From NCBI RefSeq assembly GCF_006345805.1, contig NC_042999.1, positions 171,492,001-171,556,000 of the forward strand: a DNA stretch of 64,000 nt. The letters are read 5' to 3'. This DNA comes from Octopus sinensis (Eukaryota). Made by a program: the position numbers and the translations under genes. Below are positions 1 through 61,084 of this stretch, piece after piece (positions within the stretch are counted from its first letter, which is position 1; every line of letters starts with the position of its first letter). The notes beneath the pieces were generated by a model. It was given only the letters and a program-made list of their open reading frames with translations. It had not been told where the DNA came from and ran no database searches.

Positions 1-172
1 TTTATTACTGTTCTTATTCATTCTTATTTTAACTCGTGTCCATTGTCCGGAAATATTTCGTTACACATTTGTAACATCTTCAGCAACTCTTGGTTTTCGT
101 GTGTGCTCTTGCTCCACTTACTCAATTATATTCGTCTAAGATGTGTATGTTTATGTGCGCATGCATTTGCAA

Positions 173-6599: not shown

Positions 6600-8437
6600 A
6601 TTAAAACGCTGCTATTAATTTCCTACATTGAGAAAACTCAAACTTATTCTTCAAGCGCAGACCACCTATCATAACGAACTGAATAAATTAAAGAATAGAA
6701 GAAACGCCAAAAAACTGAGAAGGCAGGGCAGCATGAAGAAAACAAACAATGAACAAGGGAAAAGGAAAAACAGTAAGTAAAAAGTAAAAGAAAAAAGAAA
6801 GTAAAAAGGTAAAGAACTCTCTTTAAAAGACAAGGCTGGAAAATTATCAACTGAGTCAGGAATAGCCAGAATTTTCTAATTCTTCAAAATATAATTTATA
6901 TATATGCTTGCTACCACTGAATATTTCTGACCTGGAGTTCTTTAGGGAGTTAGGAATCTTAAATCTGAACAGCATCTACGCTCTTTCAGTCAAACAAAGT
7001 CTATATTTATTCGATCCATTCAAATAAGGTATGTATTTACCAATTACTTTCCATTCAATCCCACGCGGTATTTTGTTATATTTCGCAGTCCATACGTAGC
7101 TAGCCAACGTAGTAGCTTTTCTTATGTCCTTATGTCTGAAGGAGGCTACGTGATTGTTATAGCGATTTTTAAATTCATCTTCACATAATCCAATGTAGAT
7201 CTTATCAGTTGCATTATTATTTAGGATTGCAGTACCTTCTGTCTCATTTATGATAGGTTTAGTCATACGTCGTTGGTCTCGCAACAGTTGCTACTAGATT
7301 CAGGCTCTTGGTATTGACCACCTGTAATGATACTCTTCATATTTAGGCAGCAGCTATACGATAATTTCCCAGAACGCCTATTAAATATTTTCCTATATTT
7401 GTGAGTGTCTTCAACTTCTTTGTCTCGAAGAGACAGGAATCTTTTACCAATGTTAATTTTTATATTGAGTGAAATGTGATCGCGAACCAAATAATTTTCC
7501 TTGGCCTATTTTAAAATTGCTTATTATCCTGATTAGTACAAGAGTGGTTATGTACTACTTTATCTTTGATGCCACTAGATCTATTATTGATATTTTGATT
7601 ATTATTAACGGGAATATATATATAATTAACTTTGAAGCCACTATTGGCATGGGCTTTGTTATAATAGGGGCAGCTTTCACGAAAATTTCTTTGGAAGAAG
7701 AGAGGTTAGACACTCTGTTACTAATATTAGCTACCGGATTTTTAAATATTACAGGAAGGTGACAAGACTATTGATGTATATATAAAAGTGTCCCTTATGC
7801 AAAGAATTATGCAAAGGTTTATCCGAGAAGGAGTCGAATTCTAGGGAAACGCATAAATAATCAACTATAGAGACATTAGTAGCTACTGTAATTTTAAGTC
7901 CTAATTGATTAAACGTAGAAATTAGTTGCTTCCTATGTGTGTCAAGAAAATATCCAAACCGTCGCCAGGGTATAGGCCAATGTCATGAGATGGGTATCTA
8001 TATTACAATGTGTTTATTATAAACAATCCCACAAGATCACAGACGTCAGCACTATCATATGACACTATAGATACATCAAATATTTCATCACTGTGTGACT
8101 TTGTTTTACCTATGCAAATCCATTATTGAACAATAGTGTTTTCGTCGCATGCCTGATAAAATCTAGGTCTATAGGGTCAAAATCAGCATATGATTTAACT
8201 AAGTAAATAGCTTTATTAAGCAGTGATCTAGATATAGAGGGATAAATGTCTATAATATCAAACTGGGTAACTTTACACTTATTCTTATGTTTGATGTTAT
8301 TAAATCAATCTGTTACAGTAAAACTGTTACTCTATTGTTGAAACCCAGCAATTTCCCCAACACTATGATTAATATTTGTAAGTATTGTTTTAGCTTCTAG
8401 CCCAATTTCAGGTCACGCTGAGTTTAACAATCTACAA
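6600..8437 (-). mobile_element. Penelope-like retroelement (RT + C-terminal GIY-YIG), 5'-truncated, degenerate
   Basis: RT: KCKVTQFDIIDIYP, FDVSIVSYDSADVCDLVGLFI, IGLYPGDG (GLYRDDG-like). Thumb: NIGKRFLSL..KIFNRRSGKLSYSC. EN: IYIGLCEDEFKNRYNNH..TTLASYVW..RLCLTE. Confidence 0.92.
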
Positions 8438-8439
8438 GA

Positions 8440-9000
8440 TTGGTAAAAGATTCCTGTCACTCCTAGACAAACATTTCTAGCAACTTACAGATACAGGAAA
8501 ATATTCAATCGGCGTTCTGCCCCAATATGAAGAGTATCATTACACGCGGTCCATAGCAAGAGCTTGAATCCAGTTGCAACTGTCGTGACACAGGATCTTG
8601 TCAACTTGACCAATGATGTATTACTAAATCAAACATATATGAGGCAGACGTTTGTGCAACACTAAATAATAATACAATTGATAAGATTTATATTGCCTTA
8701 TGTGAAAGCGAATTTAAAAATCTCTATGCTAATCCCATAGCCTCCTTCAGACATAGGGACAAAAGTGATGCTACTAAGTTGGTTAACTACGTATGGACCT
8801 TGAAAGATAAGGAAACACCGGATGTTATTAATGGGAAAGTAATGGAGAAATCCATACCTTATGCGAATGGATCGAATAAATGTAGAATTTGTTTGGCTGA
8901 AAGAGCGCAGGTCCTGCAGAGATCTAAGATCCTTAATTTTCTATTGAAATCTGCTAAAAAAATAACGCAACTTCGAGAAGCAGTCTGGCTTCCACTAGAG
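8440..9000 (+). mobile_element. Inverted partial copy of the same Penelope-like 3' region (thumb to GIY-YIG)
   Basis: ATTGGTAAAAGATTCCTGTC at 8440 is the reverse complement of about 7431-7452; ORF 8779-9084 NYVWTLK..PYANGSNKCRICLAERA parallels 6976-7284. Confidence 0.88.
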
Positions 9001-9335
9001 AAAGTGATATTTCATAATTATAAGAAGATAGTACATTGTTATTTTTGTTTTACTCCCAAAGTTCACCTAACATTAGCTTGGTGAATTCAACTTTCCCAGA
9101 AAATGACAAGGATAAGAAGCAGTTCTTAGGATGTACTTTATAACTACTTCAGCAACATGTCGATTGTCGCATAAATGTTCACTGGTTATCTGTAATAAGA
9201 GCTAATTTCTCTCAGTCATGCATCAGCAGTTTAATAGTCCACTGTTCCGGTCACCGTGACATTGAATGCATCGAGCAGAACATTTCAATATTGTAAGTAG
9301 TTTTAACTGGAACAAAACTGCTGACGGCTTTCAAA

Positions 9336-11400: not shown

Positions 11401-12088
11401 AGTTTTAGGCTGTTATGTGAAACAGTGAACGTTCAATGTGCTTAAGTGTCGTGTGGAAATCATACTGGAAATTCATAGGTTCATTTGAATATTTTACTGG
11501 TTCACGACTTCTCAGTTTTCTAAACATCGTTTACGTGACGAATCTTAATGTTGGTGTAAGAGGTGCACATATTTCTGCTTGGTTCGAATATTTTTTTTTT
11601 TTTATCCACTAATCTGTTTGTGATGAGTATTCGAGAATTGTTTTCTCATTATCTTTTTTGTGATAAGTATCCATACACCTGGTCGAGAATACATTATGCA
11701 TTATTAACCTATTTAAATATGCATTTATCTCGAAATAAAATATTAAAGCATACATAAAAAATGCTTATAGAACAACGGTGTCAAAGATAATGTTTGAGTA
11801 GAAAATCTAGTAAGAGATAAGAGAGAAATTAAGACGACTGAAATTAAGAGAATATTTTAACAAGTACACAAACTACAAACAAATTACTATAACTGGTCGG
11901 GCTATTATAAGTTCTTACATTTGGTGCATATTATAAAAATGCTTTGTGGTATGGATTCCGTTGCTCAGAAAAAGAAATGCTTTGAATACAGTTTGATATT
12001 TGGTATTATTCTGCAAACGGAGGATAGCTTTCAATACAGTTACTTTAACGAGATCATCGTACTCTGTTTAAATTCAGATCTTTCGTGA

Positions 12089-12243
12089 TAAGTAGCTTCC
12101 TTACCTGCCACATGGTTCCGGGTTCATTCTCAATGCGCGGTACCTTGGGCAAGTGTCTTCTACTATAACCTAGGGCCGACCAAAGTCTTGTGAGTGGATT
12201 TAGTAGAAGGAAACTGAAGGAAGCCCGTCATATATATGTATAC

Positions 12244-12291
<48 letters not shown>

Positions 12292-12510
12292 TTGTGTTTA
12301 TGTTTGTGTGTCTGTGTTTGTCCCCTCACCATCGCTTGGAAACCGATGGTGGTGTGTTTACGTCCGCGTAACCTAGTGGTTCGGCAAAAGAGACCGATAG
12401 AATAAGTACTAGGCTTACAAAGAATAAGTCCTGGGGTCGATTTGCTCGACTAAAGGCGGTGCTCCAGCATGGCCGCAGTCAAATGACTGAAACAAGTAAA
12501 AGAGTAAAGA
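12089..12510 (+). mobile_element. SINE family B with internal (TA)/(TG) microsatellite
   Basis: tRNA-like head GGTTCCGGGTTCA, then CCTTGGGCAAGTGTCTTCTACTATA; 3' GGGGTCGATTTGCTCGACTAAAGGCGGTGCTCCAGCATGGCCGCAG. Colinear with the reverse copy at 26487-26896. Confidence 0.9.
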
Positions 12511-14024
12511 AGTAATGAGTATCTAGAAATTTCCCTAATGATGCAAAACAGCTGGCAAATTTTTACTTAAGCAATTTTAAAGAAAGTGGCGTTGGTACAT
12601 ATTCGAAGACAGTTGATGAGGGATTTATAAGAAAGGATGTCACAGATTATATTTCAGAATGAGATGGTGCCTTAAATCCGGAACAAGACGAAGAGGTTCT
12701 CATTGAGAATAATGAATAGTAACTATTGAATAGTATCTTAACATTTCGACGGTTGCTCATATGAATAGTGGTTATGATATTCTAATTCTTTATCTCTCAT
12801 CAGTTATTATTCAGGGAGTAGTCGAAATATATAGGCTTTTGCCTGTTCCCTATTATTTCACAGAAGATGAAGATCACTGGACAATTGAGACGGAAACACT
12901 AGTGAAATCTGTGGAAGGATCTGACTGAAAGACACATTGTATAGTTGTGAGAATCCTGGATACCCAACTGGTAATCTTATTAGCAAAAAGAACTCGAGAT
13001 ATATTTCTGTGTGGCCAAAAATTATGACATTCTGCCTGTAGCGTTAAAAAATTTACAAATGAATGTTTACAGAAAAAAATAAATTCAAAATTTTATCATC
13101 CAGAAAAGCAATCATGCAATTCTATGAAGTTTACAAATCCGTGCAATTAATGTCATTATTTTCGTCAGCTAGAAGTCCACAGGTGACAAAGGTATGCAAA
13201 TAAGTTGCATTGATGGCTTAAGAATGGATAAAGTGACCTTAGAATTCGAAAACTTTACCTTTAATTGACCGGCCAGTGTTAATCAAGTCTACTTAAGAGG
13301 TTTTCTAGCACCAAAATATGTGAGAATGTACCCGTTACTGAAAAGATTGGAAAATAAAAGATACAACTTCATAGAAATACTCGGAAATTTAGCTGAAATT
13401 ACTGTTGAATTTTTTAAAATTACAACCTTATATGAGTTGCAGGCAGGTATTTGCTGGGCATTGCGCTTCTCCTAAATTAATGTTTCCAATTCGATGGAAT
13501 ACAGGTCGAAATGAGCCTTTATATCTTGATGAAAATTATTGATGTGAAGTATATACAGCTATAGGTATTTATGCTGTTCCTGGTAAAGTTTTTGGTGAAA
13601 ATCCTAATCGTAGGCATTAAAAATTTTCATTTCCACTCGATCAAATATTACTTCATGAGCAACTGAAGAAAATAAGACAATTTCCTCAAACATTTATGCA
13701 CTCATTCATTGCCTAAATGTAACGTATGTTATTCATTTATTTCATCAAAAACAAACATTGATAAATCGTTTATACTTATATACGTACATGCATGTATATT
13801 TTATGCAGCAAGGTATACGTACACGCGTGCACACGCACACACACACACACACACAGACACACACACATACACACACACTCACTCACACACACACACACAC
13901 ACAAAACACACACATATATAAATAAATATATACATGTACATATACCTATACATGCACATACGGCACCTACATAGATGTACACACACGCACGCACACTCAC
14001 ATTGATTAATTCCAATAAAAGTAT

Positions 14025-17211: not shown

Positions 17212-17378
17212 TATGTATGTATGTATATATATATATATATATATATACAATAATATAGTTATATATATATATTATATAATGTATATATATATATTATATA
17301 TTATATATATATATATATACTATATATATATTATATATATATATTATATATATATATTATATATATATATAAGATATT

Positions 17379-17410
<32 letters not shown>

Positions 17411-17827
17411 ATATAATATTTATATTATTATATTATATAGATATATTTATATATATAATATATTTATTATATATATATATTATAGATATATATATATATA
17501 TATAGATTATATATTATATATTTATAATATATTATAGATATATATTTATTATATATTATATATATATATTTATATAGATATACTATTATATTATATATAT
17601 ATATTATATATATATATATTATATATATATTTTTCATATATATATAATTTTATATATATATATAAATAATATATATTATATATATATAATATATATATAT
17701 ATATAATATTTATATAGATATATTATATTATATAATATTTATATATAATATATATTATATATTATAATATATATATACTATCGATATTTAGATATCCATT
17801 ATATATATATATAAATATATATATTAT

Positions 17828-17861
<34 letters not shown>

Positions 17862-17992
17862 ATATATAAATATTATATATATTAAATATATAAATATATA
17901 AATATATATAGTAAATATATAGCGTAAATATATATATATAATACTATGAAATCTCTTTTTAAATATATATGAATATATATAAATACATATAT
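17212..17992. repeat. Long degenerate (TA)n tract (~780 bp)
   Basis: Direct. Confidence 0.95.
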
Positions 17993-18226
17993 CAATAATA
18001 GAAATATTAAAATTACTAAGTCTCTCTAAAAGAGAACAACGGCAGCGTTCCCGGAAAATAATAGTTATCGCCATACTAATATGGCATTCTTATAAAAATA
18101 AGATAAAGCTGTCCGCTTATTAGCTCCATGAGGCAACGCCTTAAGTTAGCTATTTGATACATAAACTGTATCCATATAACCTTCGAACAAGGGAGGGGGT
18201 CAGTCGCTCCACACTACTTGACCGGC

Positions 18227-18277
18227 AGCTACAGACGCGTTTCGGGGTATTGCCCCTTTTCAATGAAGATCGTAACC
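18227..18277 (-). ncRNA. Type I hammerhead ribozyme, U3-A8 core variant
   Basis: Minus strand GGTTACgatcttCA-TTGAAAA-GGGGcaataCCCC-GAAA-CGCG-TC^TGTAGCT; palindromic stem III ACGCGT as in PLE minimal hammerheads. Confidence 0.8.
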
Positions 18278-18800
18278 AGAACCAGTAGGTGTCGCTTCGG
18301 ACAATCTCTGTTCCGAAGGTTTTATTTACCTAGCTTTCGGTGAATACATCCACTTGTTTTCAATAAGAGAAATATTAAATTCCTAAGTCTCTCTAAAAGA
18401 GAACAACGCAGCGTCCCGGAAAATAATAGTTATCGCCATACAATTGGCATTCTTATAAAAATAAGAATAAAGCTGTCCGCTATTAGCTCCATGAGGCCTC
18501 GCCTTAAGTTAGCTATTTGAACACAAACTGTATCCATATAACCTTCGAACGAGGGAGGTCAGTCGCTCCACACTACTTGACCGCAGCTAATAAGCGGAAC
18601 TTTATTCTTATTTTTATAAGAATGCCATATTAGTATGGCGATAACTATTATTTTCGGGAACGCTCCGTTGTTCTCTTTTAGATATGTAGACTTAGTAATT
18701 TTAATATTTCTATTATGAAAACAAGTGGATGTATCCACCGAAGCTATATATAAATTAAAACCTTCGAACAGAGATTGTCAGAAGCGACACCTACTGGTCT

Positions 18801-18847
18801 GGCTACGCTGCATTGAAAGGGGCAATACCCGAAACGCGTCTGTAGCT
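18801..18847 (+). ncRNA. Second hammerhead copy (inverted monomer)
   Basis: GGCTACgctgCA-TTGAAAGGGGcaataCCC-GAAACGCGTC^TGTAGCT; one A and one C shorter than the first copy (mutation or homopolymer error). Confidence 0.65.
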
Positions 18848-18955
18848 GCCGGTCAAGTAGGTGGAGCGACTGACCTCCCTGTTCGAAGGTTATATGGATT
18901 ACAGTTTGTGTATCAATAGCTAACTTAAGGCGATGGCCTCATGGAGCTAATAGCG

Positions 18956-19205
18956 CAAATGAAGACACATACAATAGAAGAACAAAATGGCTGACGGTTA
19001 GTAAGGAGGGACACACAAATAAGAAAGAAGAAAGCAAAGGACCACTGATGCACTCGCAGGAGTGTGACGAAAGAACTCTGGCCGAAATAAGATTAAGGTT
19101 AATGTAAAGTAATTAAGATTAATGAAGCAAAGTAATACCAAATATATAGTGCGTGTGTTTTTATTGGCTAAACTGGCAAAATGGCCATTCCTAAATACAA
19201 TATTC
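18956..19205 (+). mobile_element. Non-coding repeat with hammerhead-like motif, same family as 36395-36669
   Basis: 19017-19200 aligns with 36483-36666; CCA-CTGATGC..GTGTGAC-GAAAGAACTC-TGG at 19042-19081. Confidence 0.7.
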
Positions 19206-20070: not shown

Positions 20071-20210
20071 ACAGGAGTGGCTTCGTGGCAACATGGTTGC
20101 CACATGGTTCCGAGTTTAAAGACACTGCATAGCATCTTGGGCAAGCGTCTTCTACTATAGCCAAAGTCTTGTGAGTGGATTCGGTAAACGAAAATTGAAA
20201 AAAGTTCGTC
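20071..20210 (+). mobile_element. SINE family B, 5' half
   Basis: CACATGGTTCCGAG..CTTGGGCAAGCGTCTTCTACTATAG..GTGAGTGGATT matches 12109-12230. Confidence 0.8.
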
Positions 20211-26464: not shown

Positions 26465-26486
26465 GTAAAATTTATTTATTTATTTA

Positions 26487-26896
26487 TTTACTCTTTTACT
26501 TGTTTCAGTAATTTTACTGCGGCCATGCTGGAGCACCGCCTTTAGTCGAGCAAATCGACCCCGGGACTTATTCTTTGTAAGCCCAGTACTTATTCTATCG
26601 GTATCTTTTGCCGAAACGCTAAGTGACGGGAACGTAAATACACCAGCATCGGTTGTCAAGGAATGCTAGAGAGTCAAACACAGACACACAAACATACACA
26701 CACACACACACATCTATATACATACATATATATGACAGGCCTCTTTCAGTTTCCGTCTACCAAATCCACTCACAAGGCATTGGTCGGCCCGGGGCTATAG
26801 CAGAAGACACTTGCCCAAGATGCCACGCAGTGGGACTGAATCCGGAACCATGTGGTTGGTTAGCAAGCTACTTACCACACAGCCACTCCTGCGCCT
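26487..26896 (-). mobile_element. SINE family B, near full length
   Basis: Reverse-complement match to 12089-12510; head GGCGCAGGAGTGGCTGTGTGGTAAG with A/B-box-like motifs. Confidence 0.9.
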
Positions 26897-27254
26897 ATTT
26901 AACTACATTTCATAAAAAAAATTCTCTCCAACACTGATTCTTTGAAAGAAAAGGGGAGAGAATACAATTTTGAATTCTAAAGAGGAGTAAAAGAAAGAAA
27001 ATGAAAAAGAAGGAAAGAGGAGAAAAAAGAGGGGAACAAAGAAAAAAAGCAAAAAGACTTTCAGTGATGGCCTCACCGCACCTGTATTTTTTTAAGAGGT
27101 CACCAGCCTTAAACCCATTCCAGTACAATGGTAAATGATAAGTAAATAAATAAATAAATGAATAGTGAATAGGAAGGGGGACACCCTATCTCTCTCACCC
27201 TCCCTCTCTTTTCCTATCTATCTGTCTGTCTGACTATCTAAATATCTATCTATC

Positions 27255-28986: not shown

Positions 28987-29041
28987 ATGTATGTATATAT
29001 ATATATATACTTTATTTTAAGCAGCAGAAAATTCAACAAAT

Positions 29042-29079
29042 CTGTTACTCTGAGTTTCTCGTTGCCGTTCATCAGACAG
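29042..29079 (-). ncRNA. Mirror-image minimal hammerhead
   Basis: Exact reverse complement of 29104-29141. Confidence 0.7.
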
Positions 29080-29103
29080 TTTTTACTAGAATTCTAGCAA
29101 AAA

Positions 29104-29141
29104 CTGTCTGATGAACGGCAACGAGAAACTCAGAGTAACAG
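29104..29141 (+). ncRNA. Minimal type I hammerhead ribozyme
   Basis: CTGT-CTGATGA-aCGgcaaCGa-GAAA-CTCaGAG-TA^ACAG. Stem I CTGT/ACAG, GCAA tetraloop on stem II, near-palindromic stem III. Caveat: A.A mismatch at the base of stem II. Confidence 0.7.
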
Positions 29142-29251
29142 ATTTTGTTGAATTTTCTGCTGCTTAAAATAAAGCATATTACTCTACCACTGGTATTTGA
29201 GTACTCTTTTTTCCACCTTGTTTCACATTTATGTGTTTACTCCGGTCTATA

Positions 29252-29322
<71 letters not shown>

Positions 29323-31347
29323 ACATATAGCCGTATTTGTATTTGTGCGTGTGTGCATATATATAAACTTCTGATTAAGATTTCGGTTATTGAAAATGGG
29401 GGCTGTTTCAAATTTGATAGCACTACATCATTTGAGATATATTTTATGTCATAATATATATTTGTGTTTTCATAAGACAAAGTGTATCTAGGTGTAAGTA
29501 GATTGCCTGCTATTTCTTGGAGGAAGTTTTCCTGGTGCCTTTAAAAAATTACTTTCTTTCTTGTTTGCTTATTGAACATCGTAGTAGTAAAAAGAAATAA
29601 AATTGTTGGTTTACAATGTTGCTAAATAATTTGAGGCTGACACTGTTAGAGGAAGTCTGTACTGTCTCTGGTTCCAAGCTTTGTGTGTCTAGTAATATTA
29701 AACTGCATATCGTTTCATAAATGTTGATTGGATTTTTTACGTTTCACATATTTTGCAACCCTCAAGGCAATGTTTAAAACAAAAGATTTTTGTGATATTG
29801 ATGCCATTTATTTTAGTCGTAATTTTTGCGATTCTACTACTAACCTGCTTCAATTCTCATAATGATCAGCTTTGTTTAGTGGGAATAAGTGGGCAGCAGA
29901 ATTAAAACTGACGCAGGGAGGAGCAGAGGATGATGGTATCAGGATCTCTGCACTGGAAATTTCTATGGTACCACAAGTATATTTCTCGGACCATTTTGAC
30001 TTTATTGTTAATTTTCTCATTCTGGATTATGGTAATATCGACAGTGTTACACTTAAATCCTTGGTATTCCTTGATACATCGTGAAGCTTTTCCGACTGAA
30101 CTGAATATGACTGCTAAGTACAATAACTATTTCTAGTTTAGATTAAAATCATTTACTGATATCTAATCCATTATGTACAGTCAAGTGCTTAGAGTCTTCT
30201 GCAAAAACTGTTTAGTACGTCTGATGTCAATCGTAACATCATTTCTGTAAATAGTAAAAAAGAACTAGGCTCTATTCAAAATCAAGGAGACAATTAAGGG
30301 CTTTTCCAGATTTTCAGTAAATTTCGTTGATCACAAAATATATTTTCTCTGCTGATGAGCATTTCATCTAATGCTGTAGATTAAAGACAATGCAACTGTA
30401 GATCTCCAAACTGCTGCCTTATAAACAACAACTGTCACGGGAAAGAACTCGTATACAAGGACAAGATCACGGACACCAACTGAGTAGGAAACACGTATAT
30501 CGGGTTGACGTGCAACTACTTCAAGGAAATGTATATACAACACCTGGCGTAATGTCCCTCGATTCATTGTAGCATTCACAATAATCTCTGCGAACTAATC
30601 GGGGATGTGTTTTCCAAAATGGAGGTGAACACTTTTCTCCTCGTGATCAGCTTGAAAAATTGTTGACTAAGATATTTTCCTAATTTTCTGAACATGAAAG
30701 CAATGGTAGACTTAATTCACACACATGCACACAAAGAGAGACAGACAGACAGACACACATATCTGACATCCAGTGTTTAAGATTTCTAATCCAAGCTGCC
30801 TATAACAGTTTACCAAATACAAACGTCATACAAAGGGCAAAAGTGGATCCTGTCCCTCTTTCAACATCTTTTCAGCAGCTGCTCCAGACACTTAGCTGAT
30901 TTCCACTACCGCTGATGGCATGCGAAGGTGCTCAGAGGGGTTGCAGTGGTGTTATTTCAGCAATAGCTATAAAGCCTATCACTGGAATTTTAGAGGAGGT
31001 CATTACATGGCTTTAGAAAAAAAGGGCAAACCACTGGTTGGCTGATAGTGGGTTATAAGGTGGGTCTTGATGAAAACTGGTAGGGTCAAATGGGTCAAGG
31101 AGTCTGATGTTGAAAGTTCCGATAGCACTGGGTCCTGAGAAACATCGCTGATGATGCGTTCTAGACCATCCGCAAAATTTATGCATACAAACACACACAC
31201 ACACACACGCAAGCGCACACACGCACACGCATGCGCCCCCATGTATACATACATACATATATATATATATATATGTATGTATGTATATATATATATATAT
31301 TATATATCTATATCTATATATTTATATATATATATTATATATATATA

Positions 31348-31490: not shown

Positions 31491-32221
31491 GTATATATGT
31501 ATGTATATCTGGGGCGGTGGAAATCTATCAAATATACCTAAAAGCAAGATTGATGTTTATTCTGTACATATGTATGCTGGTCTTTTGAATAAAATTCTTA
31601 CTTATATGAATTGCATCATAATTTCCTACAGTATCTGGTCATGAGCATTTCTGTGTTTTCGCTATAAAATTCCCCGAGAGAATAAAATGTTTTCTTCCAA
31701 ACCAACTTGCTGACTTGGCTTTATTTGGATGTTTTAGCAAAACAGTCTCTAGTTTGCTGAATATAGATAAATCAACGAAACTACCTTAGCAATCGTTGAG
31801 TAGAAGGTTAGAGCAGATAATTCAAATCGTTTGCCCAGTGCTTTCATAATGTCACTAATCCGCTCCTTCTCTATTTGATTGATACCGGAAGGATGAAACC
31901 CAAATTTTCTTGATAATCGGATGTAAGCACTATCTAATATTTTACTTGTAGTTAATGTGTGAGTGCCTGTACGCCGTATCCGTGTAAATTATTAAATTAA
32001 CCACTGAGAATTTCCTAAAACATTGTTTACTGATCAACTGCTGTGTTTTATGATATGTATGACCCAAGATATTTATAATCAGAAACCATATTTAAAGGCG
32101 CACTGTTGAGAGTGTGGATGATGCAATCACTGTTGGACAGGCACTTGTTTATGTATTCAGTTTTGGCCTCATTGAGGTAAAGACCTACACAATTTGAGGC
32201 TTGTTCAAGAGATTGGAAAAT

Positions 32222-32751
32222 ACTTTCTAACTAGAAAGGGTATGGCCTGGTCAACCTGTAATGACATGCATAAGATCTGGTCATCAAATCTAAGTAGAGA
32301 CTTCAAACTTGAAATATTCAAAGCCACAGTCGAACCAATTCTACTACATGGCTCAGAAACCTGGAGCTTATCAAAGAAGCTTGAGAGGCGGTTGGATGGA
32401 ACCTACACTCGCCTCCTTATGAGAGCTCAAAATCTCTCGTGGAAGCGCCATCCAACCAAAATGCAAATTTATGGGAAATTACCACCTGTGTCATCTCTTG
32501 TGAAAGGTAGGAGAGTCCAGTTTGCTGGACATTGTTGTAGAGCTGAAAAAGAAGTAATTTCTACTCTTCTCCACTGGAAGCCATCTACTCGCAATACCAG
32601 AGGGCGCACACTCTCCTACCCTGATATAATCTCCAGGGATACAGGCATCCAGCAACAGGACCTCCGTAATGCTATGATGGACCGTGAAGTCTGGCGTAAC
32701 ATAGTAAATTCCATTGTCGCGACCACGGTCGAACAATGATGATGATGATGC
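32222..32751 (+). mobile_element. RTE-clade LINE 3' end
   Basis: Open frame FKATVEPILLHGSETW..RLDGTYTRLL..RRVQFAGHCCR..MMDREVWR; stop directly followed by a (GAT)n tail. Confidence 0.92.
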
Positions 32752-36394: not shown

Positions 36395-36669
36395 TTTGTT
36401 GTGTAAGATTTTTTATGTGAAGTCGTGTGTTGAAACAGACATTGTTGTATTTCGGAATGGTCATTTTGCCAGTTTAGCCAATAAATAAGAAAGAAGAAAG
36501 CAAAGGACCACTGTTGCGGTCACACGAGTGTGACGAAAGAACTCTGGCCGAAATAAGATTAAGATTAATGTAAAAAATAAATAACACTGAAGCAAAGTAA
36601 TACCAAATATATAGTACGTGTATTTGTATTGGCTAAACTGGCAAAATGACCATTCCGAAATACAACAAT
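36395..36669. mobile_element. Fold-back non-coding element with 43-bp inverted repeat and hammerhead-like motif
   Basis: 36441-36483 and 36627-36669 are perfect inverted repeats; CCA-CTGTTGC-g-GTCACACgaGTGTGAC-GAAAGAACTC-TGG at 36508-36547; TA-rich flanks. Confidence 0.75.
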
Positions 36670-36813: not shown

Positions 36814-37033
36814 TATATAATTAAGGGCTCAGTAAAATAATTTACTTTGCCACATACTGACATTTTTATAAATAGCAGCCAAATTTCAGTATGTGGCAAA
36901 GTAAATTATTTTATTGAGCCCTTAATTATATAAAGTAATATTTTGAATACGCCTTGAATGGTCCTTTTACATACTGAACACTACTTGGTGAAATTAATTA
37001 ATAACTAATTGATTTTACCCTTAATTATTGATA

Positions 37034-37096: not shown

Positions 37097-37735
37097 AAAC
37101 TTAGATAAACTTAGATATGTTTCGACCAAAGATTGGTCCAGGCCATGTCTAACTTAATAGCACCACCTGATAGGATTATTCGAATCCTGTTTAAGTCAAG
37201 TTTTGTTCAAGTTGTGAGTTCTTGTTGGGTGAGTTGTATCCAGTTTTGTTCAAGTAGTGAGTTCTTGTTGGGTGAGTTGTATCCAATTATGGGTGGCTTA
37301 TCTGGTATTCTTTGAAGGAATCTATCCAGACTCTGTTTAAAGTTGATGGGATCCTTTTCCTCTTTGATCTCCCTCGGGACAATGTTAAATAGGGTAGGAC
37401 CTGTTGAGGAAAAGAAATTATGTTGCAGTGTACATGTATGTTGAGATCTTGAATTGGGCAGGGGACGTATAGCCCGTGGTCCATGTCTTGGATGAACCTT
37501 GAAGCTAATGTTTAGGTCGTTTGGGCAAAGTTGGCGGTATATTTTCAAAATCGTACAAATGATGTACCGCTCACGGCGACGCTGGAGGGAGTAAAGTTTC
37601 AAGGCTTTAAGGCGGTCCCAATAATCGAGAACAGCCATGCCTTCAATTTGTTTAGTGAGAGCCCTCTGGGGTGACTCAATTCTGGAGATGTTTTGTCTTG
37701 TGTGAGGAGACCACAGTGGGCAGCAGTATTCAAGG
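37097..37735 (-). mobile_element. CR1/L2-group LINE 3' end
   Basis: LEYCCPLWSPH..IESPQRALTK..LDYWDRLKALKLYSLQRRRER..FKQSLDRFL; tail of (ATCTAAGTTT) repeats. Confidence 0.9.
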
Positions 37736-38488
37736 TATATAAACTCTGTCAATATTTCTTTCGTATTTCAAGCTGTAAATATTTGTTCAAACGAGGTGCA
37801 TATATCGCATCATATTCTAGTGTCTGTTGCCATCATCGTGGCAGAAGCTGAATTCTACGCTTAAAATATTTGGTTGGCTTAAACCAAAAAAAAAAAAAAT
37901 TACCTGTACCTCATCAACATTATTGACCCTCCGTCCATGTAGGAAATGAGCTGTGACAAGGAAAAGGTGGTAATCTGATGATGGTCGTCTGGACTTTAGG
38001 CAGTCTAAGTCAGTACGTCTTTGACCCAAAGGTTACTCGAGTTTACCCTTGGTCAATATGGCTGTATGTACGAGGGCATTGACATGCAGTAAGCGTGTTG
38101 TTTTATTATTACCCACTAGGGGCTACATAGATGGGACAATACAATCGGGAAAATGAATAATGAATTATGAAGTTTGTACAATGTGGTGCAATGGAAGTAA
38201 TAATAGAGAAAGAAAGAGGGAGTTGAAAGAAATTCCTGTTCCCAACATCCTGACCAGCATACTGAAAACTATTCTTTTTTAATTATATTTTGCTTAGCAC
38301 CTTAAGGGGAAAAATGCTTTTAGTGATGACTGTACCCCACCCTGTTTTCATTATTTCCTCATCCTAAAAGAGGTCACCACCGTTGAACTCATATCTCATG
38401 CCAATAGCTATACAATGGTAAAAAACTAAATAAGTGAATAAATGGTAAAACCCTTTCCCTCCCTCTCTCTAACTATCTATCTATCTGC

Positions 38489-44461: not shown

Positions 44462-44483
44462 TATATATATATATATATATATA

Positions 44484-44645
44484 CGACGGATTTCTTTCAG
44501 TTTCCGTGTACCAAATCCACTAATAAGACTTTGGTCGGCCCGAGGCTATAGTAGAAGACACTTGCACAAGGTGCTACGCAGTGGGACTGAACCCGGAACC
44601 ATGTGGTTGGGAAGCAAGCGTCTCACCACACAGCCACTTCTGAGC
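44484..44645 (-). mobile_element. SINE family B, 5' half
   Basis: Matches 26733-26890. Confidence 0.85.
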
Positions 44646-44658
44646 GTAAAAGCATGCG

Positions 44659-52400: not shown

Positions 52401-53139
52401 GTGAAGAATCGCAAATTCAAGCCTGTGAAATAATGTTATTTTGAATTCTTTAAATAAAATCGAAGATATCAGTGATAAGAATCGTTCAGTTTAAGTGCAG
52501 TTGCCTTTATTCGTTTGCTGTCTTTGAAATTATTCAGGATACAGCTTCAAATGTATATAAGATTAAAGAAAAACACGTTGCTGCCTATAGAACTTCTTAT
52601 GTATTCATTTTAAGAAAACCCAAGAATAATTATATAAGTAAGATAGAACATATTGTAAGTTGAATCGATCACTGCTGATTACAAATAATTAATTTTCCAG
52701 TTACGGAACTTGTGTATAGCAGCTCTTGTACAGTGCGGAAGACTTGTTCGATTGTTTGACATTCGTATTATCTTTATGGAAATGCATTTCTAATAGAATG
52801 CACAGCAATCCGACCTAGTCGATAATGAATACGTATCTCAAAGTTGTTATAAATTAGTGATGAAACAAATTGGGTAAATGTTAAATTTGAAGACAGGTGT
52901 CATAGATATATATATATATATATATATTTGTTGAAATGGATAAATGAATTATCTTGTTACGGATTATTCAAAATTTAACCGATACCTGGGTAGCAAAAAT
53001 CACAACAGAAAAAACACGGTTGAGGTTACGACCATGGGGTGTCGCAACCGTGCCTTAGCGCGGATAATTGAAGTTTTATATATTTAGTGAAGAGAAGAAA
53101 TGGAGCTGAACGAAGATTCTACAAACTTCCTTTTTATTA

Positions 53140-53223
53140 TTTTCTACACATGTTTCAAAGGCTGCAAATTTCCAAATTCGGATTGAATAAGGAGACCATT
53201 TTGCAGCTTTCTCTTCAGGAAAA
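53140..53223 (-). ncRNA. Type I hammerhead ribozyme with long stem II
   Basis: TTTTC-CTGAAGA-GAAAGCTGCAAA..TTTGCAGCCTTT-GAAA-CATGTG-TA^GAAAA. Confidence 0.85.
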
Positions 53224-53831
53224 ACCAGGAATATAAATCTCCAAAGCAAATGCGCAGCAAGCTATTCGAACAAAACGCTCCCTAGGAGCCCATGGTAAGG
53301 CACAAAACTGTCTCTCAATGTGCGTTGACGTCAGGGTGTGTGAAGGCCGACGAAAAAGTCCGTTGGAACAAATCGAGGTCAAACTGCGGTTAAATTTGGT
53401 AGGGGAAGAATTCAAGAAAACCAAAGAGTGTGAATACATTCTGTATAACTAATGTTAATGTTCGAATTGTTTTAAGAATGAAAGCTATCTTATTTGGGTG
53501 TGAGAAACTACTTACATGTATGTGTGTGTGCGCCTGTGTATGTGTGGCAGTATGTTAGGAAGCAGTTAGTGGGAAAATATATTGCAGATATTGTAGGTCA
53601 AGCGGCTGATAAAAGCCTGTGTCTGTGTGTTCGTCTGTGGTCAGTTTATACACCGATGACTTGTTAAACAAGGGGAGTATAATCCCTGATATTGTTTCTA
53701 AATAAGTAGCAGATCATACGCTAAAAGGGGAGTAATTTCCCTTTACAAATTTAATTCAAAATTTTTTTTCCAAATTTTTTCCAAAATTTTTTTCCTTTCT
53801 AAGGACATCAAGGTGTTAATTATCTTAGGCT

Positions 53832-54317
53832 TCAATTGTATGCAAGAAATGTGTGCCGCCTCCAATGGGGACATCTGAAAGAGTTTTGCAAAATCGCGTT
53901 AACTAGCCGCCCTCGGGCGAACAAAATGTGAAAAAGTTCAGAGTTGCAGAGATTACAGATTCTTTTGCCTCTATCAAACGGTACAGACACCGATAAAATC
54001 GACCATTCCAGTCTAAATGCTGAATTCGCGTTCTTCAAACGCCAGATCAATTTACTTAGTCCGGTCGCGTGTTGTTTTCTAAAATCTCGAAATGTTGTGA
54101 AGTGGTTCGATATTCTCACGGCCAATTTTGATGATGACGCTCCGATATACAAGTAGACATCTGATTCAGTACAAACTCTGCATTGGTAAATGGCATTTCT
54201 AATCTTGGAAATACTAGATAAGAACCTTATTCTATTGGGATTGGCTTCAGATATTAATACGGCGTTCTTATTACTATGATGATTGCGAGAACTGCGGCTG
54301 TCTTCGACATTATACAC
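53832..54317 (-). CDS. GIY-YIG endonuclease domain of Penelope-like element (left arm)
   Basis: NAIYQC..YLYIGASS..RISNH..TGLSKLIW..ICNLCNSE..CPH. There is no ATG; it is a truncated part of a longer ORF, open further upstream. Confidence 0.85.
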   Translation of the reverse strand: MYNVEDSRSSRNHHSNKNAVLISEANPNRIRFLSSISKIRNAIYQCRVCTESDVYLYIGASSSKLAVRISNHFTTFRDFRKQHATGLSKLIWRLKNANSAFRLEWSILSVSVPFDRGKRICNLCNSELFHILFARGRLVNAILQNSFRCPHWRRHTFLAYN

Positions 54318-54890
54318 CCCATTATCAATACTATTTAATGGAATATCACCTGTATATTCCCTGGCACTGAGATCGCTGTGATTGCTAATGTCCGTGATGC
54401 TACTGTTGTCAAAACCGTTGCTAAAAGTGTTATTGGCACTCTCTACATTAATGACTCGGACAGTGCTCTCTGGGTATTATGCCACTGTTAACTCACACAA
54501 AGTTAGGATAGCCTTCTCCAACACTAAGAATCTCTCACAGATAATTTCCTCCCATAACAATAAGCTGCTAAATAAGGCCCTCTCACCAGAATAACGCGCA
54601 GTAATAATAATAATAATAATAATGATAATAGAACCGGCACAGAGATTAGCAATCTCCATACCAGCCATGGAGTTAATAATAGGAATAAGGATAGGAGCAA
54701 TGGTGACGACACTAGCGTTAGTAATGGTAATGGGGATGAGAGCACTGTCCGAGTCATTAATGTAGAGAGTCCCAATAACACTTTTAGCAACGGTTTTGAC
54801 AACAGTAGCATCACGGACATTAGCAATCACAGCGATCTCAGTGCCAGGGAATATACAGGTGATATTCCATTAAATAGTATTGATAATGGG

Positions 54891-55376
54891 GTGTATAATG
54901 TCGAAGACAGCCGCAGTTCTCGCAATAATCATAGTAATAAGAACGCCGTATTAATATCTGAAGCCAATCCCAATAGAATAAGGTTCTTATCTAGTAATTC
55001 CAAGATTAGAAATGCCATTTACCAATGCAGAGTTTGTACTGAATCAGATGTCTACTTGTATATCGGAGCGTCATCATCAAAATTGGCCGTGAGAATATCG
55101 AACCACTTCACAACATTTCGCGATTTTAGAAAACAACACGTAACCGGACTAAGTAAATTGATCTGGCGTTTGAAGAACGCGAATTCAGCATTTAGACTGG
55201 AATGGTCGATTTTATCGGTGTCTGTACCGTTTGATAGAGGCAAAAGAATCTGTAGTCTCTGCAACTCTGAACTTTTTCACATTTTGTTCGCCCGAGGGCG
55301 GCTAGTTAACGCGATTTTGCAAAACTCTTTCAGATGTCCCCATTGGAGGCGGCACACATTTCTTGCATACAATTGA
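54891..55376 (+). CDS. GIY-YIG endonuclease domain of Penelope-like element (right arm)
   Basis: Same protein with 4 aa differences in 161. The frame is open from ~54576 through an Asn/Ser-rich linker; GTG is not a real start. Confidence 0.85.
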   Translation: MYNVEDSRSSRNNHSNKNAVLISEANPNRIRFLSSNSKIRNAIYQCRVCTESDVYLYIGASSSKLAVRISNHFTTFRDFRKQHVTGLSKLIWRLKNANSAFRLEWSILSVSVPFDRGKRICSLCNSELFHILFARGRLVNAILQNSFRCPHWRRHTFLAYN

Positions 55377-55980
55377 AGCCTAAGATAATTAACACCTTGA
55401 TGTCCTAAGAAAGGAAAAAAATTTTGGAAAGAATTTGGAAAAAAGATTTTGAATTAAATTTGTAAAGGGAAATTACTCCCCTTTTAGCGTATGATCTGCT
55501 ACTTATTTAGAAACAATATCAGGGATTATACTCCCCTTGTTTAACAAGTCATCGGTGTATAAACTGACCACAGACGAACACACAGACACAGGCTTTTATC
55601 AGCCGCTTGACCTACAATATCTGCAATATATTTTCCCACTAACTGCTTCCTAACATACTGCCACACATACACAGGCGCACACACATATACATGTAAGTAG
55701 TTTCTCACACCCAAATAAGATAGCTTTCATTCTTAAAACAATTCGAACATTAACATTAGTTATACAGAATATATTCACTTTGGTTTTCTTGAATTCTTCC
55801 CCTACCAAATTTAACCGCAGTTTGACCTCGATTTGTTCCAACGGACTTTTTCGTCGGCCTTCACACACCCTGACGTCAACGCACATTGAGAGACAGTTTT
55901 GTGCCTTACCATGGGCTCTTAGGGAGCGTTTTGTTCGAATAGCTTGCTGCGCATATGTTTTGGAGATTTATATTCCTGGT

Positions 55981-56064
55981 TTTTCCTGAAGAGAATGCTG
56001 CAAAATGGTCTCCTTATTCAATCCGAATTTGGAAATTTGCAGCCTTTGAAACATGTGTAGAAAA
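55981..56064 (+). ncRNA. Type I hammerhead ribozyme (right arm)
   Basis: TTTTC-CTGAAGA-GAATGCTGCAAA..TTTGCAGCCTTT-GAAA-CATGTG-TA^GAAAA; predicted cleavage after 56059. Confidence 0.85.
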
Positions 56065-56117
56065 TAATAAAAAGGAAGTTTGTAGAATCTTCGTTCAGCT
56101 CCATTTCTTCCCTTCAC

Positions 56118-56170
<53 letters not shown>

Positions 56171-60345: not shown

Positions 60346-60349
60346 TTAT

Positions 60350-60407
60350 TACCGTATTGGTCCAATTTCGGGGTTAATTCATAAGAATTTTCCCCTCTTC
60401 AGCGATA
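60350..60407 (-). ncRNA. Type I hammerhead ribozyme (inverted copy)
   Basis: Exact reverse complement of 60891-60948. Confidence 0.88.
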
Positions 60408-60890
60408 AATACGTGGGATATAAGTGAAATACTTACTCATACCCATACTTATGAATTAACCCCGAAATTGGACCGATACGGTAATAACGGATTTTTTAGA
60501 AATTTCTATCGGGTTGTGTCGAGACGCATAAATTATAATGGTTATTGACAATTTTTGTCTTTTCAGCATATTTGGCATTAGAATTTTTCTTTTGCCTTTA
60601 TCTTGTAAATTATTTATAAATTTAACCTTTAAAGGTATTTTTTGATATGCTGGCCATTGATAAAATTTTTTTCCCGAAAAAAATTTTATCCTTCATTAGT
60701 TATAAATTGAATAGTGTTCACTTCCGGATTCTTTCACTCTGTGAAAGTTTCTAGTTCGAATCACACGTGCCTCGAGATGTGCCGAAGATTTTCTATTTTG
60801 GATATATTTGGGGTGCTTAGGTCTGCTCTGGACTTAGTGCTTGCTTTTTCCATGGGTATGAGTAAGTATTTCACTTATATCCCACGTATT

Positions 60891-60948
60891 TATCGCTGAA
60901 GAGGGGAAAATTCTTATGAATTAACCCCGAAATTGGACCAATACGGTA
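60891..60948 (+). ncRNA. Type I hammerhead ribozyme, canonical core
   Basis: TATCG-CTGAAGA-GGGGaaAATTCttatGAATTaaCCCC-GAAA-TTGGaCCAA-TA^CGGTA. Confidence 0.9.
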
Positions 60949-61084
60949 ATAACGGATTTTTTAGAAATTTCTATCGGTTTGTTTCGAGACGCATAAATTA
61001 TAATGGTTATTGACAATTTTTGACTTTTTTTCGGCATATTTATTTGGCATTAGAATTTTTATTTTGCCCTTATCTTGTAAATTA

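What the first reader, a model, noticed from the sequence alone, without database searches (positions are those of the whole stretch)
18361..18600. Tandem array begins 2 nt from the predicted ribozyme cleavage site
Seen: on the minus strand the hammerhead cuts GTC^TGTAGCTGC. The second tandem unit stops at ...GCAGCTA (18589), so its 5' end is TAGCTGC, 2 nt downstream of the cut. The inversion joint uses an AGCTA microhomology (18585-18589). Inference: the reverse-transcribed template was a self-cleaved RNA; the cDNA end then re-primed by microhomology to make the inverted copy. This is a fossil record of ribozyme activity in vivo.
Basis: partly seen in the sequence, partly recalled or inferred. 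Interest (0 to 1): 0.7.

Follow-up and report, generated by a model that had tools for sequence, protein, structure and literature searches.

The report
Hammerhead retrozyme with head-to-head inversion
A short, high-copy mobile repeat with a predicted self-cutting hammerhead RNA sits here as 1.7 tandem units joined head-to-head to an inverted unit, and the joint lies 2-7 bases from the predicted cut, so this one copy may have been made from self-cut RNA, but other copies do not repeat the pattern.

Summary
A ~360-nt unit with a type I hammerhead (U3-A8 core; predicted cut 18234/18233 on minus) forms 1.7 tandem units (18589 to 17992). They join head-to-head, through a 5-nt AGCTA overlap, to an inverted unit (18585-18957). 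The overlap puts the 5' end 2-7 nt past the cut, not exactly 2.

The family is abundant (846-1991 contigs per DNA run), has no long ORF and fits a non-LTR retrozyme with Penelope-type insertion anatomy.

The inference goes beyond the data. One end lands this close about 2% of the time by chance; any of 7-10 ends, 14-20%. The three other hammerhead-bearing head-to-head insertions in the window do not start at their cut. Of 3 strand-switch joints in reads, none is this one; the nearest is 16 nt from the cut. Both arms read through an intact cut site. One polymorphic site argues against plain fold-back, which the three other insertions do support.

A cut template is about even odds for this copy and unproven for the family. 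The scan has one similar note from another genome, whose follow-up also judged against ribozyme-cut ends.

The parts
18234..18589 (-). Unit A of the direct arm: starts at cut+3 (TAGCTG) and ends at the GTC cleavage triplet; 356 nt
17992..18233 (-). Unit B of the direct arm: cut+1 to cut+242, 3' end abuts the (TA)n array
18228..18269 (-). Type I hammerhead of the direct arm: U3-A8 core from 18263, stem II GGGG/CCCC with loop CAATA, 2-bp stem III, predicted cut between 18234 and 18233; stem I is broken by letters private to this copy
   Evidence: (tables 3, 4)
18585..18589 (.). AGCTA microhomology at the head-to-head joint (cut+3..7 of unit A, cut+109..113 of the inverted arm)
18585..18957 (+). 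Inverted arm, 373 nt: cut+109 through an intact hammerhead to cut+120 of the next unit
18807..18846 (+). Hammerhead of the inverted arm, stem I intact (6 pairs, pair probability 0.93-1.0), predicted cut between 18840 and 18841
18756..18894 (+). Long imperfect rod with the hammerhead at its tip (about -69 kcal/mol, z -7.0)
17212..17992 (.). (TA)n microsatellite at the 3' end of the direct arm, the likely insertion target
18958..19200 (+). Copy of a second, degenerate hammerhead-like repeat family abutting the inverted arm in the same sense (19017-19200 is 90% identical to 36483-36665; membership of 18958-19016 untested)

Best explanation
This is a copy of a high-copy ~360-nt hammerhead-bearing tandem repeat of the non-LTR retrozyme type, likely inserted beside a (TA)n run by a Penelope-like reverse transcriptase working in trans. 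Inferred steps: the nicked target primed cDNA on a multimeric RNA at cut+242. Synthesis ran through one uncut or re-ligated hammerhead junction and reached the 5' end left by cleavage at the next hammerhead. The cDNA end, 2 nt short or trimmed, paired its AGCTA with TAGCT about 100 nt back on antisense DNA, and synthesis from there made the 373-nt inverted arm. Shown: the anatomy, the motif, the microhomology and the abundance. Inferred: cleavage, the enzyme, the order of events.
For: Anatomy and joint. An end within cut+1..+8 arises by chance at about 2% for one end. The family keeps the core unchanged: no variant at 5% or more is listed at 18232-18262, and the majority letters restore stem I. 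The rod around the inverted hammerhead is strong. The cut+3/cut+109 pairing is 0.00 in uncut RNA and 0.02-0.28 once the upstream part is removed, and appears in the minimum-energy fold of unit A. Three other hammerhead-bearing insertions have inverted arms copied from their own direct arm (100% of 101 nt, 100% of 43 nt, 98.5% of 1394 nt); one ends in an ORF whose look-alike cluster carries GIY-YIG in 11% of members (lead only). Published precedents: inverted 5'-truncated copies and (TA)n targets in PLEs (PMC8557442, passages); self-priming on an antisense template (PMC3846280, passages); snap-back junctions and ribozyme-set 5' ends in R2 (PMC11331408 passages; PMC3774820 abstract).
Against: n=1. 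0 of 3 other hammerhead-bearing head-to-head insertions start at the cut (about -34 nt, -62 nt, >1.3 kb upstream). Of 3 strand-switch joints listed from 3891 contigs, none lies at 18227-18231 (18129/18218, 18102/18254, 18265/18331). None of the 24 loose ends shown (of 177) lies at the cut. Depth across the cut changes -13%, -35% and +11% in three DNA runs, with no consistent step. The inverted arm has the short GACCTCCC form like unit A, while its predicted template, unit B, has the long form; both forms are common in the family (short 43%, 75%, 37% of depth). As DNA, the terminal fold-back has probability 0.08, rank 46 of 364 stops. In the one PLE studied in vitro, uncut RNA was the main template and no RNA-seq reads ended at the cut (PMC11167929, main text).
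Confidence: 0.45

Rival explanations
1. Same element and same Penelope-type fold-back, but the template was an uncut multimer or a circle. The reverse transcriptase stopped near the cut by chance, and the palindromic AGCT there happened to allow the joint.
For: Both arms read through an intact cut site. 110 of 364 stop positions offer a 5-nt fold-back match. With 7-10 ends to look at, one falls this close 14-20% of the time. Other insertions and read joints are away from the cut. Published models use circles or uncut RNA as template (PMC7229834 discussion; PMC4209133; PMC11167929).
Against: For a single end the coincidence is about 2%. Units A and B differ at a family polymorphism, so a single monomer circle was probably not the template.
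Confidence: 0.35
2. Both target strands primed cDNA (twin or double priming). The inverted arm was copied from RNA upstream of unit A or from a second RNA, and the two cDNA ends were joined by microhomology. If it was one RNA, it was uncut at that junction.
For: The inverted arm shares the short polymorphic form and a 1-nt deletion with unit A rather than unit B. A PLE protein nicks and extends both strands in vitro (PMC11167929). The arm abuts a same-sense copy of another hammerhead-like family, as a template switch would leave.
Against: Over cut+3..+120 the tally is even (3 events side with A, 3 with B) and the letters are noisy. In the 60-kb element the inverted arm matches its own downstream unit at 2 of 2 differing sites, as fold-back predicts. 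Conversion between arms or polishing could explain the shared form.
Confidence: 0.15
3. The inversion is an assembly or long-read fold-back artefact beside an 800-nt (TA)n array.
For: About 10 differences per 100 nt between arms, mostly 1-nt indels. This exact joint is not among the joints listed in four runs, although those runs need not be the same individual or species.
Against: The inversion is offset (arms start about 105 nt apart in the unit), has microhomology, ends in different flanks, and matches three cleaner insertions of the same build in the window. A similar strand-switch joint exists in independent contigs (X1, 18129/18218, depth 51).
Confidence: 0.05

Closest known systems
Metazoan non-LTR retrozymes (PMC7229834; bioRxiv 10.64898/2026.07.22.740005)
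   Same: 150-450-nt tandem unit with a type I hammerhead, GC under 50%, no ORF, many copies, a strongly self-paired RNA; mussel units are 350-390 nt.
   Different: The core is the U3-A8 form. This copy is dispersed and carries a head-to-head inverted arm; a term search of the two main texts found no use of 'inverted' for retrozymes. Cleavage and circular RNA were not tested here.
Penelope-like elements with partial tandem and inverted pLTR (PMC3846280, PMC8557442, PMC11167929, PMC4209133)
   Same: Partial tandem plus an inverted 5'-truncated copy joined head-to-head with a short overlap; (TA)n target; type I hammerhead, the U3-A8 variant being described in Schistosoma PLEs.
   Different: No RT or GIY-YIG ORF; no similarity to the 3' region of the ORF-bearing element at 53-56 kb; the arms' 3' ends differ by 122 nt rather than by a 30-40-nt tail; no clear target duplication.
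R2 retrotransposons with an HDV-like 5' ribozyme (PMC3774820, PMC11331408)
   Same: Precedent for a ribozyme cut defining the 5' end of inserted DNA, with microhomology priming and rare snap-back junctions.
   Different: Different ribozyme class and element. In R2 the link is shown across many junctions; here it rests on one.

Membership tests
Type I hammerhead ribozyme | Conserved core (CUGANGA or the U3-A8 covariant), GAAA, NUH triplet, stems I-III | tested here: met
   By inspection: TTGAAAA, stem II GGGG/CCCC, GAAAC-GC-GTC; stem I 6 bp in the inverted copy. The inverted copy is one A and one C short, the direct copy has a broken stem I; family reads show no core variant.
Type I hammerhead ribozyme | Match to an Rfam hammerhead model | tested here: not met
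   0 matches at gathering score and 0 at E up to 10; the canonical-core motifs at 53 and 60 kb were also missed.
Type I hammerhead ribozyme | Self-cleavage at the predicted site | not testable with these tools
   Needs in vitro transcription; stem III is not formed in the monomer ensemble, so a dimer fold may be needed.
Non-LTR retrozyme | 150-450-nt unit in tandem, one hammerhead per unit | tested here: met
   Period 358 in the window; all 28 bins covered and contigs run from the end of the unit back to its start in 3 of 3 DNA runs.
Non-LTR retrozyme | Non-coding, GC under 50%, multi-copy | tested here: met
   No ORF of 120 aa or more overlaps 17992-18957; GC 40%; 1991, 1021 and 846 contigs laid in three DNA runs.
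Non-LTR retrozyme | Two consecutive complete hammerheads at the locus (the preprint's 'active' criterion) | tested here: not met
   One hammerhead per strand; the direct arm holds only one.
Non-LTR retrozyme | Expressed as linear and circular RNA | tested here: inconclusive
   33 contigs laid from run X11, whose RNA status is a guess; contigs cannot show ends or circles.
Autonomous Penelope-like element | ORF with RT and GIY-YIG endonuclease | tested here: not met
   No ORF in the element.
Penelope-type insertion | Partial tandem with an inverted 5'-truncated copy joined head-to-head | tested here: met
Penelope-type insertion | AT-rich or (TA)n target | tested here: met
   3' end abuts 17212-17992; a contig in X11 leaves the unit at 18062 into (TA)n.
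Penelope-type insertion | Fixed 3' end with an optional 30-40-nt tail; target duplication | tested here: inconclusive
   3' ends seen at cut+120, cut+172 and cut+242; no convincing duplication in the AT-rich flanks.

The most novel reading that the evidence does not exclude
Hammerhead-cut linear RNA, not only circles or uncut multimers, serves as the template when Penelope enzymes mobilise retrozymes, and the family carries a junction hot spot just 3' of the cut. Two junctions pair nearly the same sites (here cut+3..8 with cut+109..113; in run X1 cut+16 with cut+105, orientation not given). Genomes would then hold a countable DNA record of hammerhead cleavage in the germ line, and the head-to-head anatomy would tie retrozymes mechanistically to Penelope enzymes.
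Probability: 0.25. Interest if true: 0.65.

Novelty: new member of a known kind. Interest (0 to 1): 0.35.

Why it matters
What hammerheads do in Penelope-like elements and retrozymes in vivo is open: one paper calls their function unclear (PMC8557442) and another found cleavage dispensable in vitro (PMC11167929). A breakpoint peak at the cut in a family with many copies would answer this from genome data alone. The Penelope-type inversion on a non-coding retrozyme also supports trans-mobilisation by PLE enzymes, which the papers read argue from co-occurrence, homology and phylogeny. One locus settles neither point.

Tried and rejected
No whole genome is held, so copies could not be collected. 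Exact family motifs found nothing in metagenome, viral and prokaryote contigs. A loose U3-A8 pattern gave 21 + 3 loci; none matches the unit beyond the pattern, so all 24 were dropped. No RNA holder is on record; X11 is a guess, so nothing is concluded on expression. Only 4 of 23 listed runs could be laid, on one unit (18056-18418), and 153 of 177 loose ends were not shown. Depth dips at 18264-18289 and 18134-18146 follow letters private to the window and are not read as truncation. The X11 joint 18265/18331 sits on a loose end and near a local hairpin, so it is doubtful; it is still counted among the 3 joints. The near-equal coordinate sums of three joints (36347, 36352, 36356) were considered as a shared stem and rejected: the two regions share only TAGCT by eye, and 18102 is a known alignment break. 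Reverse-transcriptase stalling at the hammerhead was considered; the rod begins about 60 nt earlier, so it does not predict cut+3 (inference). A second motif hit for the neighbouring family at 30450 is chance. Pfam and PDB searches did not confirm the GIY-YIG reading of the 53-kb and 8-kb ORFs. My relaxed hammerhead descriptor gave 0-4 hits in shuffles and also missed the 18-kb copies. Paper searches showed no study mapping PLE or retrozyme 5' junctions onto hammerhead cuts; the library lacks most subscription papers and no supplements were read.

Full report
Setting. The window is AT-rich and full of microsatellites, as in an animal genome (inference). No whole genome is held.

Observation. 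On the minus strand a direct arm runs from 18589 to 17992: unit A (356 nt) and 242 nt of unit B, ending at a (TA)n array. The unit holds a type I hammerhead: TTGAAAA, stem II GGGG-CAATA-CCCC, GAAAC-GC-GTC, with the predicted cut between 18234 and 18233. The U3-A8 core is a covariant described in Schistosoma PLEs (PMC4209133, parts 1-2 of 4 read). Unit A starts at cut+3. An inverted arm (18585-18957, plus strand) starts at cut+109, passes an intact hammerhead (cut 18840/18841) and ends at cut+120. AGCTA at 18585-18589 fits both arms, so the direct arm's 5' end lies 2-7 nt past the cut. Rfam sees no hammerhead. The inverted copy sits at the tip of a rod with z -7.0; the direct copy reaches only z -1.9. 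The arms differ by 13 substitutions and 25 indel events in 392 columns. At several sites all or nearly all family contigs differ from the direct arm, so many letters are private changes or errors.

What it is. Laying four runs on one unit placed 1991, 1021, 846 and 33 contigs, covered all 28 bins, and showed contigs running from the unit's end back to its start in all three DNA runs. No variant at 5% or more is listed at 18232-18262, and the majority letters restore stem I as in the inverted arm. There is no ORF of 120 aa or more. This fits metazoan non-LTR retrozymes (PMC7229834, parts 2-4 of 6 read; bioRxiv 10.64898/2026.07.22.740005, parts 1 and 3 of 5 and passages). The partial tandem with an inverted 5' copy beside (TA)n is the usual build of Penelope-like insertions (PMC8557442, PMC3846280, PMC8969392, passages).

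Test of fold-back. Three other hammerhead-bearing insertions have the same build: 60346-61080, 53077-56127 and 36441-36669 (the last with a degenerate core, read by eye). Their inverted arms match their own direct arms at 100% (101 nt), 98.5% (1394 nt) and 100% (43 nt). At 60 kb the arm follows the downstream unit at both sites where the units differ. This supports self-copying as the usual route here and agrees with the self-priming reading in PMC3846280 and with snap-back junctions in R2 (PMC11331408, passages). At 18 kb the evidence is mixed. The arm lies within the direct arm's span, and the joined 5-mers pair in the minimum-energy fold of unit A. The pair probability is only 0.02-0.28 in RNA (0.00 in uncut context) and 0.08 as DNA, rank 46 of 364. 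The arm has the short GACCTCCC form like unit A, although fold-back would copy unit B, which has the long form; both forms are common in the family (table 4). Over cut+3..+120, 3 events side with A and 3 with B; over cut+109..+242, 10 side with B and 2 with A, but where one search covers them A's letters there are private, so they say little.

Test of the cut template. One end falls in cut+1..+8 by chance 2.2% of the time, or 2 of 110 if weighted by 5-nt matches; any of 7-10 ends does so 14-20% of the time. The other three insertions start about 34 nt, 62 nt and more than 1.3 kb upstream of their cuts. Three strand-switch joints were listed: X1 18129/18218 (cut+105, cut+16; no shared letters), X5 18102/18254, X11 18265/18331. 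None is at the cut; the X1 joint is close to the present pair, but its orientation is not given. None of 24 loose ends shown (of 177) is at the cut. Summed depth from bin 18212-18224 to bin 18238-18250 changes -13%, -35% and +11%; the tool warns that this is no copy number, and tandem units would dilute a step. Both arms cross an intact cut site, so uncut or re-ligated RNA was also copied. In the anole PLE, cleavage was not needed and no reads ended at the cut (PMC11167929, parts 1-2 of 4 read). R2 shows that ribozyme cuts can set 5' junctions (PMC3774820, abstract only). My estimate, not a tool result: a likelihood ratio near 30 on a prior of 3-5% gives about 0.5-0.6 for a cut template in this copy; I give 0.45 to the full model with fold-back.

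Enzyme. The 53-kb element ends in an ORF with look-alike clusters at 0.94-0.96, one of them with GIY-YIG in 11% of members. It aligns with the 8.6-kb ORF (E 3e-12, pairwise). Pfam and PDB gave no support. I read both as PLE endonuclease remnants from recalled motifs and anatomy. Neither is shown to be the partner: the 18-kb element has no other match in the window.

Verdict. The element is a new member of a known kind. The claim of a record of cleavage needs the genome-wide breakpoint plot, which could not be run here. Searches showed no such plot in print; supplements and subscription papers were not seen and may bear on this. One earlier scan note from another genome (e1-7789363) reached a similar sceptical view; I did not test it and do not count it as evidence.

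Noticed in passing
window 60346-61080: Second hammerhead family (CTGAAGA core, cut after 60943, 465-nt period) with a partial tandem, a 101-nt inverted arm identical to 60852-60952, and a 3' end in (TA)/(TATG)n; the direct arm starts inside the stem II loop.
   Followed up: partly
window 53077-56127: 1394-nt inverted repeat (98.5%) around a 270-nt loop, with an Asn-rich ORF ending in a GIY-YIG-like stretch, a hammerhead-like motif about 68 nt from each 3' end, and (TA)n beyond; looks like a young 5'-truncated Penelope-like insertion.
   Followed up: partly
window 36441-36669 and 19017-19200: Third repeat family with a decayed hammerhead-like motif; the 36-kb copy has a 43-nt inverted 5' arm. 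The 19-kb copy abuts the 18-kb inverted arm in the same sense: a nested insertion or a template switch.
   Followed up: partly
window 6950-8936: Old inverted pair (74% over 524 nt) with an ORF remnant at 8617-9084 similar to the 53-kb ORF.
   Followed up: partly
window 29005-29179 and 36814-36932: Near-perfect palindromes (97% and 86%) next to (TA)n runs; origin not examined.
   Followed up: no
window 12085-12515, 20098-20210, 26480-26897, 44466-44648: Another dispersed repeat family flanking (CA)n or (TA)n runs.
   Followed up: no
window 32176-32739 (+) and 37207-37767 (-): ORF fragments that read like C-terminal parts of non-LTR retrotransposon proteins (recalled resemblance; no Pfam match above cutoff).
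   Followed up: no
run X1, joint 18129/18218 on window 18056-18418: A strand-switch joint pairing nearly the same two sites as the window's junction (cut+105, cut+16), one contig, depth 51, orientation not given.
   Followed up: partly
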